Positions 7,321 to 11,037 of a stretch of 64,000 bases of DNA are shown piece after piece. Origin of the DNA: Myxococcota bacterium (lineage in GTDB: Bacteria > Myxococcota_A > Polyangia > Nannocystales > Nannocystaceae); assembly GCA_039028615.1 (NCBI GenBank), contig JBCCHT010000013.1, forward strand, positions 32,001-96,000, in the 5' to 3' direction. A model generated the notes under the pieces. That model was not told where the DNA came from. It saw nothing but the letters and a program-made list of their open reading frames with translations, and searched no databases. Each line of letters opens with the position of its first letter. Within the stretch, counting starts at the first letter, position 1. The position numbers and the translations under genes were made by a program.

Positions 7321-8337
7321 ATGTCGACGCCAGCCACCAAGACCAAGCCGCGCATTCTCTCTGGAGTGCAGCCCACCGGTAACATCCATCTCGGCAACTA
7401 CATCGGTGCGATTCGTCAGTGGTGCGCGCACCAGGCCGACTTCGACAGCTTGTTCTGCGTCGTCGACCTGCACGCGTTGACGATCCCGGAGGTCGTCGAG
7501 CCCGAGGTGCTGAAGCGGAAGAACCGGGAGATTTCGGCGCTGTATCTGGCGTGTGGCATCGACCCGGAGGTCTCTACGATCTTCGTGCAGTCGGATGTGC
7601 ATCAGCACGCCGAGCTGGGGTGGATCCTCGGGTGCGTCACGCCGCTGGGGTGGCTGTACCGGATGACGCAGTTCAAGACGAAGTCCGACAAGCGCGAGAG
7701 CGTGGGCACGGGGTTGCTGACGTATCCCGTGCTGCAGGCGGCGGACATCGTGCTCTACGACGCGGACCAGGTGCCGGTCGGGCAGGATCAGAAGCAGCAC
7801 ATCGAGCTCGCGCGGGATGTGGCGCAGCGCTTCAATCAGCTATTCGGGGATACGTTGACGGTGCCCGATGTGATGATCCCGAAGGCGGGGGCGCGGATCA
7901 TGGGGCTGGATGATCCGACGTCGAAGATGAGCAAGAGCGTCGGGGCCGAGGTCAAGGGGCATGCGATCGGGATGCTCGATACGCCGAAGCAGATTCGCAA
8001 GGCGATCATGCGGGCGGTGACGGACTCGGGGACGGAGGTTGATTTCTCGGCGATTAGTCCGGGGATTCGGAATTTGTTGACGCTATATGAGGTGCTTTCG
8101 GGGGAGTCGAAGGAGGCGATCGAGGGGCGGTTTGCGGGGAAGGGGTATGGGCATCTGAAGAAGGATGTGGCTGAGGTCGTGTTGGGGACGATCGAGCCGG
8201 TGCAGGCGCGGTGGAAGGAGCTGATGGATGATCCGGGGTATTTGGATGGGGTGCTGGATCGGGGGGCGGAGCGGGCTCGTGGGATTGCAGCTGAGGTGTT
8301 GGGGCGGGTGAAGGTGGCGGTGGGGCTTGGCCGCTGA
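7321..8337 (+). CDS. trpS: Tryptophan--tRNA ligase
   Basis: SGVQPTG, HLGN (HIGH), YPVLQAADI, VPVGQDQKQHIELARD, KMSKS. Confidence 0.97.
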   Translation: MSTPATKTKPRILSGVQPTGNIHLGNYIGAIRQWCAHQADFDSLFCVVDLHALTIPEVVEPEVLKRKNREISALYLACGIDPEVSTIFVQSDVHQHAELGWILGCVTPLGWLYRMTQFKTKSDKRESVGTGLLTYPVLQAADIVLYDADQVPVGQDQKQHIELARDVAQRFNQLFGDTLTVPDVMIPKAGARIMGLDDPTSKMSKSVGAEVKGHAIGMLDTPKQIRKAIMRAVTDSGTEVDFSAISPGIRNLLTLYEVLSGESKEAIEGRFAGKGYGHLKKDVAEVVLGTIEPVQARWKELMDDPGYLDGVLDRGAERARGIAAEVLGRVKVAVGLGR

Positions 8338-8340
8338 GGG

Positions 8341-9866
8341 GGGAGAGACCGGCCCGAGGGGAACTGATTCGCCGGAAATGACGTGGTGCTAACGGGCCAG
8401 GCAAGGCCGCCGGGCTGGCGCGGACGGGACAGCGTGGAGCAGCCGACGCAATGATCTGGCGTCGTGGTCGACAACGGATCCGTGACACCTGCGCGGAGGA
8501 TCATTGACGGGCAAACGGTGATGGTTCAGCGGCGGACGATGTACCGGATGTTCCTGCTGCTGCCGACCACTCGGACCAAGGCAATCCTGGGGTATTGCTT
8601 GGGCTACGTTTGCGAGAAATACAGTGTTGAACTGCACGAGTTCATATTTCTGAGCAACCACTACCATCTCGTCGTCACTGACCCTCGTGGTGAGCTGCCA
8701 GCGTTCATGCGGGACCTCAACAGCCTGATCGCTCGGGCGCTGAACTCATCGTACGGGCGGTGGGAGGCGGTGTGGTCGTCGGAACCGTACTGCGCACCGG
8801 TGCTTTGCGATGCGGAAAGTGTGCTCTCGAAGTGCATCTACACCCTGTGCAACGCGAATGAGGCGGGCCTCGTTCGGTATGTGAGGGAGTACGACGGCTT
8901 GTGTAGTTGGGGATTGGACTACGGAAGCTGTCTCGACTTCGCGCGGCCCGACGGGTTCTTTTCGTCGGATCTGCCATCGCAGGCGTCTGTGATTCTCTCT
9001 CGGCCCAAGCAACTCTGGCCGGGCGCAGAGGACCGCACGGTTCGTGCGGAGATACGCCGCGCGGTGCGGGAACGGGAGGGGGACAACGCGTGTCGCATTC
9101 GAGCCGCGGGCGGTGCGTTCCTGGGGATGAAGCGAGTCCTTCGACAGCGGGTGACGGACACTCCGAGTTCGCGGGCTCCGCGGAGAGGGCTCCGGCCCCG
9201 GGTGGCAGGCCGGAGTCGATGGGCGCGAATTGAGGCGCTCGAGCGGAACGCGCGTTTTCAGGTGGAGTATCGGGCGGCGCGGCTTCGGTTTGACCGCGGG
9301 GAGCGAAACGTCGAGTTTCCGCTCGGGACCTACAAGCTACGGGTGGAGTCGAACGTTCGTGTTGGCTTGGTGGGCGCAGGTCGGTCGCCGCCGTAGCTGG
9401 AACTCATTGTGGTGAATTGCAGTCGGCGGGCAGGTCCCGTCTAGCGGTGCTGGTTGTTTTGGAGATCGCCGCGGATAGAAGTCCGCGCCTGCGCATTTCT
9501 TCGGTGAATTGGAGGTCGAATCTGCAGAGGCACGGCCGAGCGTGAGCGCTGCAAGACCTCCGACCGCCGCACTGAGTTACCGAACTCGGTTGGTCAGAGA
9601 ATATCGGACCGATTGATCGAAAAGACCCTCGGGCGGGTCTCTCCCCGGTGAATTGGAGGTCGAATCTGCAGAGGCACGGCCGAGCGTGAGCGCTGCAAGA
9701 CCTCCGACCGCCGCACTGAGTTACCGAACTCGGTTGGTCAGAGAAGATCGGACCGATTGATCGAAAAGACCCTCGGGCGGGTCTCTACCGCACTGAGTTA
9801 CCGAACTCGGTTGGTCAGGGAAGATCGGACCGATTGATCGAAAAGACCCTCGGGCGGGTCTCTCCC
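8341..9866. mobile_element. RAYT-like (HUH/Y1) element bounded by inverted 20-bp hairpin motifs
   Basis: Left GGGAGAGACCGGCCCGAGGG (8341-8360) is the reverse complement, with one mismatch, of CCCTCGGGCGGGTCTCTCCC (9626-9645, 9847-9866); encloses the transposase ORF and repeat array. Confidence 0.7.
8482..9396 (+). CDS. REP-associated tyrosine transposase-like protein (Y1_Tnp/HUH family, myxobacterial type)
   Basis: HUH motif LSNHYHLVV, FMRDLNSLIARALN, GRWEAVW, candidate catalytic Tyr in KCIYTLCN, C-terminal FPLGTY; lower GC than neighbours; GTG 8482 preferred over 8464. Confidence 0.85.
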   Translation: MTPARRIIDGQTVMVQRRTMYRMFLLLPTTRTKAILGYCLGYVCEKYSVELHEFIFLSNHYHLVVTDPRGELPAFMRDLNSLIARALNSSYGRWEAVWSSEPYCAPVLCDAESVLSKCIYTLCNANEAGLVRYVREYDGLCSWGLDYGSCLDFARPDGFFSSDLPSQASVILSRPKQLWPGAEDRTVRAEIRRAVREREGDNACRIRAAGGAFLGMKRVLRQRVTDTPSSRAPRRGLRPRVAGRSRWARIEALERNARFQVEYRAARLRFDRGERNVEFPLGTYKLRVESNVRVGLVGAGRSPP

Positions 9867-9880
9867 AAAGACCCTCGGGC
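9502..9880. repeat. Tandem array of 144-bp multi-hairpin units (2 full, one 79-bp partial, one 14-bp remnant)
   Basis: Unit 1 9502-9645; unit 2 9646-9786 (one internal substitution); partial 9788-9866 equals the last 79 bp of a unit; remnant AAAGACCCTCGGGC 9867-9880. Confidence 0.95.
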
Positions 9881-9885
9881 ACCCG

Positions 9886-11037
9886 CTAGCCTTCAACGCG
9901 CGGCAGATCCTGCGACTTCCGCCGAAAGATCAACCGCTCCAACGCCTGACTAATCCCATCCACCAGCTCATTCAACGACCGCGGATCCACCGGATGCCGA
10001 GTCCCCGACGCATACACCAGCAGCGGCACCCGCTCCCGCAACCGAACCGGCAGCACGAGCACATTCCCCGTGATCGACCCCATCGCCTGATCAAACGCCT
10101 TATTGATCTTCGACGTATTCCGCCACGGCCCAAAGTACGGCGCCCCGCGCTCGATCACATCCCGAAACGCCGAAGGCCCCGTCGTCGGAATCCGAACCTG
10201 CGTCACCGCCTCGAGCAACAGGTCATCCCCCCGAGCATCCCGCCCCCGCAGCTGCTTTTGCAGATGCACGAACATGATCACCCGGTCGAACCCCTCGGCG
10301 AGAAAGTCGAGCAGCACCCGCGTAATCTCGTCCCGGTCCGCCGCCGCGACCAACCGCGGCAACACCCGCGCGAACGCAGCGGGGGACAGCGGAGGAAAAT
10401 TCTCATCCACGAGCCGCCCGCTGTCGGTCCGCACGGTGGCAACCGGCACGGGCGTCGCCGACCGCTGTCGTGTTGGCGGCGGAGCAGCTCGAGTCTGCGC
10501 CGGAGTCTCCGACGCGGGCGGATCACTCACGGCGGGCGCGGGGGCAGGCGCGGGCTCATCCTGCCCCGCACCGATCGGCAGGTTCGCGGGTCGCGGTCCG
10601 TAGTACCGCTCGAGCGCACGCCGCAACGCGGTCAGCGGCGCGACCGCTCGTACGAGATATGCCCCGGTGTGATTGGCGACGGCATCGACCGCCCGGAGGT
10701 CGGTGGGATCGGCCATCGCCAGCGTCAGGTTGCCCACGTCGTCGACCGACACGGGCAGGACCTCGTGGTACCAAGCGAGCTCGATCGGCAGGTGCCGCAA
10801 GGTCTCGCGCTCGAGCTGATCGAGCAGGTCGGCTTCGACCTCGGGGATCATCAGCTTGCTCTGGAGGAAGCGGACCAAGTCCTCCTCACTCGACAGACCA
10901 CGGTGGATGATCACCTCGACGGGCGGCACCCGATTGGCGTAGGCGAAGTCTCGAATGCGCACCGACTCCCCCTCGGGGAGCAGGCCCGCCCGCTGCATCA
11001 TGGTGGCCAGATTGCTCAACGCGAGTGGATCATTCAT
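9886..11037 (-). CDS. GspE/PilB N-terminal (T2SSE_N) domain protein without ATPase, with Pro/Ala linker and GAF-like C-terminal domain
   Basis: LPIELAWYHEVLPV...LTLAMADPTDLRAVDAV...ALERYYG; no Walker motifs; ATG 11037 avoids overlap with iscS. Confidence 0.75.
   Translation of the reverse strand: MNDPLALSNLATMMQRAGLLPEGESVRIRDFAYANRVPPVEVIIHRGLSSEEDLVRFLQSKLMIPEVEADLLDQLERETLRHLPIELAWYHEVLPVSVDDVGNLTLAMADPTDLRAVDAVANHTGAYLVRAVAPLTALRRALERYYGPRPANLPIGAGQDEPAPAPAPAVSDPPASETPAQTRAAPPPTRQRSATPVPVATVRTDSGRLVDENFPPLSPAAFARVLPRLVAAADRDEITRVLLDFLAEGFDRVIMFVHLQKQLRGRDARGDDLLLEAVTQVRIPTTGPSAFRDVIERGAPYFGPWRNTSKINKAFDQAMGSITGNVLVLPVRLRERVPLLVYASGTRHPVDPRSLNELVDGISQALERLIFRRKSQDLPRVEG

What the first reader, a model, noticed from the sequence alone, without database searches (positions are those of the whole stretch)
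7500..10450. Mirror-image cytosine-depletion halo in host genes on both sides of the RAYT-like element
Seen in sequence (hand counts): trpS has 30/60 C-ending codons at its 5' end (7321-7500) but only 6/98 in 8041-8334, next to the element. GAT, TAT, ATT, TTG, GGG and CGG replace GAC, TAC, ATC, CTC, GGC and CGC, with intermediate values between. The convergent T2SSE_N gene shows the same on the opposite strand: 29/60 in 10681-10860 versus 5/64 in 9889-10080. In both cases the depleted strand lies 5' of the motif GGGAGAGACC(C/G)GCCCGAGGG, and the effect fades within about 0.5-0.8 kb. trpS keeps its motifs, so the shift appears largely synonymous. Inference: a long-resident HUH nuclease repeatedly nicks or exposes ssDNA at its hairpins, causing localised strand-specific loss of C (deamination and/or abasic-site bypass). 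That would be element-directed local mutagenesis; I do not know of this being described for RAYT loci.
Basis: partly seen in the sequence, partly recalled or inferred. Interest (0 to 1): 0.88.

Follow-up and report, generated by a model that had tools for sequence, protein, structure and literature searches.

The report
Cytosine-loss halos flanking inverted-repeat elements
Next to a transposon-like insert, the ends of two ordinary genes have lost almost all cytosines from one DNA strand in a mirror-image pattern, and the same scar surrounds about ninety other repeat-element ends in this genome, so such elements appear to damage their neighbours strand-specifically.

Summary
GC skew reaches +0.58 left of the element and -0.34 right of it; the genome-wide sd is 0.088.

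The depletion is derived. The trpS, MshEN-gene and DAO tails of same-genus genomes keep C3 near 0.5, against 0.04-0.09 here. The change is almost purely synonymous: C is replaced by G at four-fold sites and by T at two-fold sites.

It is not peculiar to the RAYT-like element. Four other repeat families (A-D), built as inverted units around 0.2-1.3 kb interiors, show the same polarity. Of 93 outer flanks, 79 have signed skew above 0.2, against 0 of 93 controls. The skew decays over about 0.6 kb in 3'-facing, 5'-facing and intergenic flanks alike. Ordinary convergent gene ends lack it (0 of 4285).

Homologues of the transposase in other genomes rarely show it (1 of 25 loci).

Best reading: the strand whose 3' end faces an element is repeatedly exposed as single-stranded DNA, by break resection or post-replicative gaps, and loses cytosine. 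This matches the known break-associated polarity in yeast and human. The HUH nuclease as the agent is unsupported. The mechanism is inferred, not shown.

The parts
7321..8337 (+). trpS (tryptophanyl-tRNA synthetase), an intact host gene whose 3' part carries the left halo
   Evidence: Pfam tRNA-synt_1b, E 5e-71, residues 8-287. It ends ...VGLGR* like all 4 same-genus orthologues.
7501..8339 (+). Left halo: the + (coding) strand is depleted of C, most strongly from 8041
   Evidence: C3 per 30 codons is 8,8,12,7,7,6,2,2,0. Skew is +0.32 to +0.58 over 7900-8399. Orthologues hold 10-20 C3 per block throughout.
8340..8360 (+). Left terminal inverted repeat, GGGGAGAGACCGGCCCGAGGG, 2 nt after the trpS stop codon
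   Evidence: Inverted-repeat pairs I1-I3. The motif is found nowhere else in the genome at up to 3 mismatches, apart from one 3-mismatch hit on C2.
8464..9396 (+). RAYT-like Y1 (HUH) transposase ORF, 310 aa, lower GC than the host
   Evidence: Pfam Y1_Tnp scores 23.8 bits against a cut-off of 23. NCBIfam REP_Tyr_transpos scores 34.1 bits against a cut-off of 80. There is one paralogue at 66% identity on C8.
9502..9866 (+). Right end: a 144-nt unit in two and a half tandem copies, each ending in the inverted 20-nt motif (9626-46, 9770-89, 9847-66)
   Evidence: Direct-repeat family D1 and inverted pairs I1-I3. Doubled depth in an independent assembly.
9886..10400 (-). Right halo: the - (coding) strand is depleted of C
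   Evidence: C3 per 30 codons falls 10,4,4,2,1 toward the stop. Skew is -0.28 to -0.34 over 9900-10299. Tail C3 is 0.09 against 0.50-0.53 in 5 of 5 same-genus orthologues.
9886..11037 (-). MshEN-domain (T2SSE_N-type) gene, convergent with trpS
   Evidence: Pfam MshEN, E 1.6e-15. Orthologues at 72-80% identity in 5 of 5 same-genus genomes.

Best explanation
The halo is a mutational scar, not an adaptation, and it belongs to a whole class of inverted-repeat mobile elements in this genome rather than to the HUH transposase.

Proposed mechanism (inferred): at such an element, the strand that runs 5'->3' toward the element is repeatedly left single-stranded for a few hundred bases. That is the + strand on the left and the - strand on the right. 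Two routes give this polarity. One is 5'->3' resection of both ends of a break formed in the element. The other is blockage of DNA polymerases at the element, with synthesis re-primed beyond it, which leaves daughter-strand gaps of the same polarity.

Cytosines on the exposed strand are lost, by deamination to U giving T, or by abasic sites bypassed by translesion synthesis. Purifying selection lets only synonymous changes through. The genome's strong preference for G/C at third positions then drives four-fold sites to G and leaves T at two-fold pyrimidine sites.

Shown here: the polarity, the distance decay, the synonymous nature, the derived state, and the link to the elements.

Inferred: single-strand exposure, the source of breaks or gaps, and the chemistry.
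For: 1. Derived and in situ.
- trpS C3 is flat in 4 of 4 same-genus orthologues, none of which has the element.
- Tail C3 is 0.09 against 0.50-0.53 (5 of 5) for the MshEN gene, and 0.04 against 0.45-0.51 (4 of 4) for a second halo gene, DAO.
- At conserved residues where the outgroups have C3, this trpS keeps C at 32 of 58 sites in columns 0-209. In columns 210-338 it keeps C at only 6 of 35 (15 G, 14 T). G>C changes fall from 6 to 0.

2. Element-linked and general.
- 93 outer flanks of families A-E: 79 have signed skew above 0.2 in the proximal 200 bp and 88 are above 0. Of 93 controls taken 1.15-1.5 kb away, 0 are above 0.2.
- 44 of the 61 most skewed regions in the genome lie within 600 bp of a unit, although such DNA is 0.96% of the genome.
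- The second RAYT-like copy has +0.44 and -0.45.
- 85 of 93 halo flanks are unique sequence.

3. Depends on position, not on gene orientation.
- Mean signed skew per 100 bp is .38 .25 .21 .16 .08 .05 .01 for 70 3'-facing flanks.56 .27 .18 .10 .12 for 9 5'-facing flanks, and .44 .39 .27 .20 .21 for 13 intergenic flanks. 3'-facing and 5'-facing flanks do not differ (Mann-Whitney p = 0.79).

4. Mutation filtered by selection.
- In 26 flanking genes, third positions change (C .60 to .31, G .31 to .53, T .07 to .14) while first and second positions barely move.
- trpS amino-acid replacements at outgroup-invariant columns are 6 of 53 in the halo against 5 of 156 upstream.
- T>A skew rises on the same strand: AT skew is -0.19 against 0.00.

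5. The polarity and net spectrum match break-associated single-strand damage.
- At human meiotic hotspots the flanking 2 kb carry C>N and A>N on the forward strand and their complements on the reverse. The single strand lies left of the break on the forward strand and right of it on the reverse. C>G, C>T and A>G are ascribed to translesion synthesis (passages of PMC7615360).
- Inverted repeats in yeast raise mutation in reporter genes on both sides (abstract of PMC3681665).

6. Related units in a second same-genus genome (G004) carry skew of -0.3 to -0.6 on the expected side in 5 of 5 loci.
Against: - No break, gap or single strand has been observed. Only Logan contigs of one metagenome run were available, and they show no variant.
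- Halo strength does not rise with arm length or arm identity (Spearman -0.06 and -0.03). It rises with the interior length of the element (rho 0.80, n = 21). A simple hairpin or SbcCD-type cleavage model predicts the opposite.
- At four-fold sites C is replaced mainly by G, not T. This needs either direct C>G changes or a strong G/C third-position pressure acting afterwards. The two cannot be told apart, because the nearest genomes are only about 75% identical in protein.
- The orientation test rests on my own crude gene caller and on only 9 5'-facing flanks. In 4-5 well-supported 5'-facing genes the skew stops at the gene start.
- The direction of cause is not proven. Elements might prefer sites that are already skewed.
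Confidence: 0.5

Rival explanations
1. One reading: the resident HUH (RAYT-like) nuclease nicks at its terminal hairpins, and the nicks expose flanking single strands that lose cytosine.
For: Both copies of the transposase in this genome have mirror halos. One homologous locus in another genome (L087) has +0.58 and -0.42. Both copies are old, at 66% identity to each other, which fits long residence.
Against: About 90 flanks of families A-D show the same halo without any HUH gene. Pfam Y1_Tnp finds only this ORF in the genome. The terminal motif occurs only at this locus. Only 1 of 25 readable homologous loci elsewhere has a halo. A nick processed 3'->5' into the flank would expose the opposite strand (inference).
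Confidence: 0.1
2. Transcription-linked damage: host genes read into a structured element, RNA polymerase stalls or R-loops form, and the non-template (coding) strand stays single-stranded and loses C. G-richness then stabilises further R-loops.
For: 70 of 79 genic flanks are gene 3' ends facing the element, and there the depleted strand is the coding strand. In several well-supported 5'-facing genes (S9 peptidase, C1 33161-35524, C17, C51 33645) the skew stops at the gene start.
Against: 13 intergenic and 9 5'-facing flanks show the same signed skew and the same decay. In two 5'-facing genes with good coding signal (C8 2886-3539, C54 192-896) the coding strand is C-rich, the opposite of what this model predicts. 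Ordinary convergent gene ends show nothing.
Confidence: 0.12
3. Selection on sequence: for example G-rich, Chi-like signals that protect the DNA beside a fragile site, C-rich G-poor antisense RNA that lets Rho stop transcripts leaving the element, or quadruplex-forming G runs.
For: The G-rich strand has the orientation that a Chi-type signal would need for ends entering from the element (inference). Outward transcripts would be C-rich and G-poor.
Against: No k-mer stands out: the best 8-mers occur in at most 14 of 93 flanks. The shift is a blanket change at nearly all synonymous sites and in every neighbouring-base context. That is too diffuse for per-site selection. Amino-acid replacements rise in the trpS halo.
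Confidence: 0.07
4. The skewed gene ends are recombinant patches that travelled with the element from another lineage.
For: Unit B is 87-91% identical between two same-genus genomes whose housekeeping proteins are only 72-80% identical. The elements therefore move or are conserved. trpS and the MshEN gene are neighbours only in this genome.
Against: The trpS tail is as close to its orthologues as they are to each other, block by block. The change is graded, with no sharp border. A donor with the right skew on each side of every element would still need explaining.
Confidence: 0.03

Closest known systems
Strand-asymmetric mutagenesis around meiotic double-strand-break hotspots in human (Hinch et al., Science 2023; PMC7615360, passages read)
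   Same: C>N and A>N occur on the forward strand left of the centre and their complements on the right. The range is set by resection. C>G, C>T and A>G are ascribed to damaged single strands and translesion synthesis.
   Different: There the signal is de novo mutations at programmed SPO11 breaks in a eukaryote. Here it is a fixed, near-saturated compositional state in a bacterium, centred on mobile repeats. No break has been demonstrated, and the range is shorter (about 0.6 kb).
Mutagenesis of flanking genes by fragile inverted repeats in yeast (Saini et al. 2013; PMC3681665, abstract read)
   Same: Inverted repeats raise mutation on both sides, dependent on distance, end resection and a translesion polymerase.
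   Different: That is an experimental rate measurement at reporter genes up to 8 kb away. Here the halo does not scale with arm length or identity, and it grows with spacer length.
REP / REPIN - RAYT systems (listing and abstracts only)
   Same: A Y1 HUH protein related to RAYTs, flanked by inverted copies of a short motif. Elements sit between convergent genes.
   Different: The protein scores far below the RAYT cut-off. Its motif is not dispersed. Homologues are multi-copy in many genomes of the class. The 12 listed REPIN/RAYT papers had 0 occurrences of 'GC skew'.
Replication-linked GC skew of bacterial chromosomes (general knowledge, recalled)
   Same: G>C and T>A on the strand more often single-stranded. 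The sign switch from + to - matches the polarity of a terminus.
   Different: The chromosomal skew is weak and spans megabases. Here the amplitude is 0.4-0.6 over about 0.5 kb and recurs at at least 21 complete elements.
Kataegis, or break-associated strand-coordinated clusters (recalled; the reviews listed were not read)
   Same: Runs of C changes on one strand that switch strand across a break.
   Different: Kataegis is usually enzymatic, with a TC context. Here depletion is similar in all contexts and is, if anything, weaker after T.

Membership tests
RAYT (REP-associated tyrosine transposase) | Y1 HUH domain scoring above the curated family cut-off | tested here: not met
   NCBIfam NF047646 scores 34.1 bits against a cut-off of 80, although it covers 27-143 of 146 profile positions. 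Pfam Y1_Tnp scores 23.8 bits against a cut-off of 23.
RAYT (REP-associated tyrosine transposase) | Gene flanked by inverted copies of its cognate repeat | tested here: met
   The 20-21 nt motif lies at 8340-8360 and is inverted at 9626-46, 9770-89 and 9847-66.
RAYT (REP-associated tyrosine transposase) | A dispersed population of cognate REP/REPIN copies in the same genome | tested here: not met
   At up to 3 mismatches the motif occurs only at this locus (4 copies), plus one 3-mismatch hit on C2.
RAYT (REP-associated tyrosine transposase) | Single copy per genome, inherited vertically | tested here: inconclusive
   There are two copies at 66% identity here. Homologues were found in 158 of 301 genomes of the class, with up to 14 matches per genome.
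IS200/IS605 | TnpA scoring above the family cut-off | tested here: not met
   NF033573 scores 17.4 bits against a cut-off of 55.
Break- or gap-associated single-strand DNA mutagenesis | Mirror polarity: C lost on the strand whose 3' end faces the centre | tested here: met
   Window. Of 93 flanks, 88 have the expected sign.
Break- or gap-associated single-strand DNA mutagenesis | Decay with distance over a resection- or gap-sized tract | tested here: met
   Mean signed skew falls from .38 to .01 over 600 bp.
Break- or gap-associated single-strand DNA mutagenesis | Spectrum of C>T, C>G (and A>G) on the exposed strand | tested here: inconclusive
   Net composition changes are C -0.125, G +0.094, T +0.048, A -0.018. 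Polarised trpS sites give C>G 15 and C>T 14. Direct events cannot be separated from later G/C third-position pressure.
Break- or gap-associated single-strand DNA mutagenesis | Physical breaks or single strands at the site | not testable with these tools
   Only contigs of one metagenome run were available.
Hairpin/cruciform cleavage of long palindromes (SbcCD type) | Effect grows with arm length and identity and falls with spacer length | tested here: not met
   Spearman correlations are -0.06 (arm length), -0.03 (arm identity) and +0.80 (spacer), n = 21. Elements with arms of only 15-21 nt have strong halos.
Chromosomal replication origin or terminus skew switch | One switch per replichore boundary, on a megabase scale | tested here: not met
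   There are 61 extreme islands and at least 21 complete elements, each with a local + to - switch.

The most novel reading that the evidence does not exclude
A class of inverted-repeat cassettes in this marine, high-GC, 12-Mb genome and at least one same-genus genome acts as chronic break or gap sites. Their neighbours, including essential genes such as trpS, carry a saturated, strand-specific 'evolutionary kataegis' footprint. This would be the first bacterial counterpart of the mutational asymmetry at meiotic hotspots. It would mean that mobile elements mutagenise adjacent host genes directionally, and that the polarity and length of single-strand tracts can be read directly from genome sequence.
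Probability: 0.35. Interest if true: 0.88.

Novelty: new variant of a known kind. Interest (0 to 1): 0.8.

Why it matters
If the reading holds, mobile elements impose a local, strand-specific mutation pressure strong enough to remove nearly every synonymous cytosine from the ends of neighbouring essential genes, and to raise amino-acid replacement there.

That would be a new cost, or a new evolutionary lever, of carrying such elements. It would be a natural record of where and with what polarity bacterial DNA becomes single-stranded. It would also be a simple sequence signature, a mirror-image skew island, for finding fragile or recombination-prone sites in uncultured genomes.

There is a practical warning too. 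Codon-usage or skew-based detectors of foreign DNA will mislabel these native gene ends.

Tried and rejected
- tRNA scan of 8000-10500: 0 genes.
- Rfam on the window region and on three other loci: nothing credible. There was one chance miRNA-type hit at E 0.43 and otherwise 0 hits.
- Chi-like or other enriched k-mers in halos: none.
- Neighbouring-base context of the lost C: depletion occurs in all contexts, with no deaminase-type hotspot.
- Arm length or identity as a predictor of halo strength: no correlation.
- Gene-orientation dependence: my first impression was that halos stop at 5'-facing genes. The distance-matched test did not confirm this (p = 0.79, n = 9). It remains open because the gene calls are my own.
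- Halos as part of the repeats: rejected, since 85 of 93 are unique sequence.
- Assembly artefact: rejected.
- Sequencing runs: one DNA holder, kept as contigs only; no RNA holder is listed; one odd joint (7476 to 7646, depth 5, side 21) is probably from another organism.
- Solved structures: phmmer with the transposase found nothing meaningful (best E 0.75).
- Earlier findings of this scan: 2 valid look-ups returned nothing.
- Literature: searches turned up no description of skew halos beside bacterial repeats or transposases. These were five word searches of an open-access library, so this is not proof of absence.
- Longest-ORF extraction of orthologue tails picked wrong frames for several loci. 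It was replaced by tblastn-guided extraction.

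
Full report
**The observation**

The region holds trpS (7321-8337, +; Pfam tRNA-synt_1b, E 5e-71) and a convergent MshEN-domain gene (9886-11037, -; E 1.6e-15). 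A 1.5-kb insert lies between them.

Per 30 codons, trpS C3 runs 14,16,8,8,12,7,7,6,2,2,0. The minus-strand gene falls 10,4,4,2,1 toward its stop.

The 200-bp GC skew reaches +0.58 at 8100-8299 and -0.34 at 9900-10099. Across the 12.27-Mb genome, 300-bp windows have sd 0.088, and only 262 of 244,841 windows reach |0.4|. By third-position skew of the last 100 codons, the two genes rank about 3rd-5th of 5147. An independent assembly of a public run gives identical letters.

**The change is derived and occurred in place**

- Four same-genus trpS orthologues (74-77% amino-acid identity) have flat C3 of 10-20 per 30 codons, and none has the element downstream.
- The MshEN-gene tail has C3 0.09 against 0.50-0.53 in 5 of 5 same-genus genomes. 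The gene heads agree, at 0.48 against 0.46-0.53.
- Block by block, the trpS tail is as similar to its orthologues as they are to each other. It is therefore not a foreign patch.
- At conserved residues where the outgroups carry C3, this genome keeps C at 32 of 58 sites in the first 210 columns. In the last 129 columns it keeps C at 6 of 35 (15 G, 14 T). G>C changes drop from 6 to 0.
- In the last 100 codons of trpS, four-fold sites read G45 T7 A2 C3 and two-fold pyrimidine sites read T16 C3.
- Replacements at outgroup-invariant residues are 6 of 53 in the halo against 5 of 156 upstream.

**The element**

The 310-aa ORF at 8464-9396 is a distant relative of RAYTs. NCBIfam REP_Tyr_transpos scores 34.1 bits against a cut-off of 80, and Pfam Y1_Tnp scores 23.8 bits against 23.

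The element is bounded by a 20-21-nt motif at 8340-8360 and three inverted copies. Each inverted copy closes a 144-nt tandem unit. The motif occurs nowhere else in the genome.

One paralogue (66% identity) lies on contig C8, with its own terminal motif. It also has a mirror halo of +0.44 and -0.45.

**The phenomenon is genome-wide and not tied to the HUH gene**

The 61 most skewed regions often come as + then - pairs 1-3 kb apart. The DNA between them holds four further repeat families: A (79 hits), B (30), C (15) and D (20). Units are 226-250 nt long.

They are typically arranged as one or more units, an interior of 0.2-1.3 kb, then inverted units, and they mostly sit between convergent genes. 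Cargo differs between elements. One carries a SEFIR/TIR-domain gene, another an Exo_endo_phos protein, and others carry ORFs with no family.

The evidence for a general halo is as follows.
- Of 93 outer flanks, 79 have signed skew above 0.2 in the proximal 200 bp and 88 have the expected sign. None of 93 controls taken 1.15-1.5 kb away exceeds 0.2.
- 44 of the 61 extreme regions lie within 600 bp of a unit, against 0.96% of the genome. Two more are the left flanks of the two RAYT-like loci.
- Pooled halo composition is A .142, C .234, G .415, T .209. Controls are .160.359.321.161.
- In 26 flanking genes only third positions change.
- 85 of 93 halo flanks are unique sequence.
- Ordinary gene ends lack the pattern. 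None of 4285 genes with a downstream gap under 200 nt has third-position skew above 0.6. Of the 18 genes that do, 17 have a gap of 500 nt or more.
- A DAO gene beside a B element has tail C3 0.04, against 0.45-0.51 in 4 of 4 orthologues.
- B-like units in same-genus genome G004 carry -0.3 to -0.6 on the expected side in 5 of 5 loci. One locus in G002 has no adjacent halo.

**Tests of mechanism**

1. Transposase homologues occur in 158 of 301 genomes of the class and are often multi-copy. Of 25 loci with both flanks readable, 1 has a mirror halo. Many of these copies may be young, so this weakens the HUH hypothesis without excluding it.

2. Signed skew decays alike beside 70 3'-facing, 9 5'-facing and 13 intergenic flanks (p = 0.79). 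This argues against purely transcription- or mRNA-based models. The caveat is that the gene calls are my own, and in several solid 5'-facing genes the skew stops at the gene start.

3. The sign does not flip across each arm. The interior keeps a weak skew of the same sign, so the whole element is the centre of symmetry.

4. Halo strength is unrelated to arm length or identity but rises with interior length (rho 0.80, n = 21). Arms of 15-21 nt suffice. This speaks against a simple hairpin-cleavage model and is unexplained.

5. No enriched k-mer and no base-context hotspot was found.

**Interpretation**

The depleted strand is always the one whose 3' end points at the element. This polarity is expected in two cases (inference). 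One is the 3' tails left by 5'->3' resection of a two-ended break. The other is template gaps left when polymerases are blocked at the element and synthesis restarts beyond it.

An origin-like process, or outward transcription, predicts the opposite sign (inference).

The polarity and the net changes (C down, A slightly down, G and T up) match published findings. At human meiotic hotspots, C>N and A>N mutations lie on the forward strand left of the break, and C>G, C>T and A>G are ascribed to translesion synthesis (PMC7615360, passages). In yeast, inverted repeats cause mutagenesis of flanking genes (PMC3681665, abstract).

I therefore read the halo as a long-term mutational scar of recurrent single-strand exposure beside resident inverted-repeat elements, filtered by purifying selection and by the genome's G/C third-position bias. 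The agent that makes the breaks or gaps is unknown.

**Novelty**

Five word searches of the open-access library found no description of such halos beside bacterial repeats or transposases. This is not proof of absence.

Noticed in passing
window 7321-11037; loci L002-L005, L051-L058: trpS and the MshEN-domain gene are neighbours only in this genome. In all five same-genus genomes they lie on different contigs. The element may therefore sit at a rearrangement junction.
   Followed up: partly
L034:4654-5643 (G000 C18 62653-63642): A SEFIR/TIR-domain protein gene (Pfam E 5e-11 and 6e-11) is the cargo of a B-type element. The element has inverted arms of about 250 nt and lies between convergent DAO and DUF4349 genes. 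It could be a defence-type cassette.
   Followed up: partly
G000 contig ends (e.g. C8 148, C18 23, C21 1, C42 1, C50 1, C55 1, C91 1): Many contigs begin or end inside A-D units, so these repeats are a main cause of breaks in this assembly. True copy numbers are probably higher than counted.
   Followed up: no
L097, L099-L102 (G004) versus G000 unit B: Unit B is 87-91% identical in DNA between two genomes whose housekeeping proteins are only 72-80% identical. The units are either moving between species or strongly conserved.
   Followed up: no
21 complete elements, G000: Halo strength rises with the length of the element interior (Spearman 0.80) and is unrelated to arm length or identity. None of the models considered explains this.
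   Followed up: partly
L087 (G155 C318 22254-26105): This is the only one of 25 homologous transposase loci in other genomes with a clear mirror halo (+0.58 and -0.42). It lies in a different genus of the same family.
   Followed up: no
L036:2419-3613 (G000 C53): A RES-domain toxin and Xre-type antitoxin pair lies directly beside a skew island and an A unit.
   Followed up: no
window 7570-7877: Summed contig depth doubles here and a unitig breaks at 7777-7806 in the independent assembly. A second, related trpS sequence is probably present in the same metagenome.
   Followed up: no
units A and B (e.g. L033:3790-4021, L034:4292-4541): Families A and B share a core of about 110 nt (71% identity) that holds a TTGACG box. 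No Rfam family matches. The function of the unit is unknown.
   Followed up: partly
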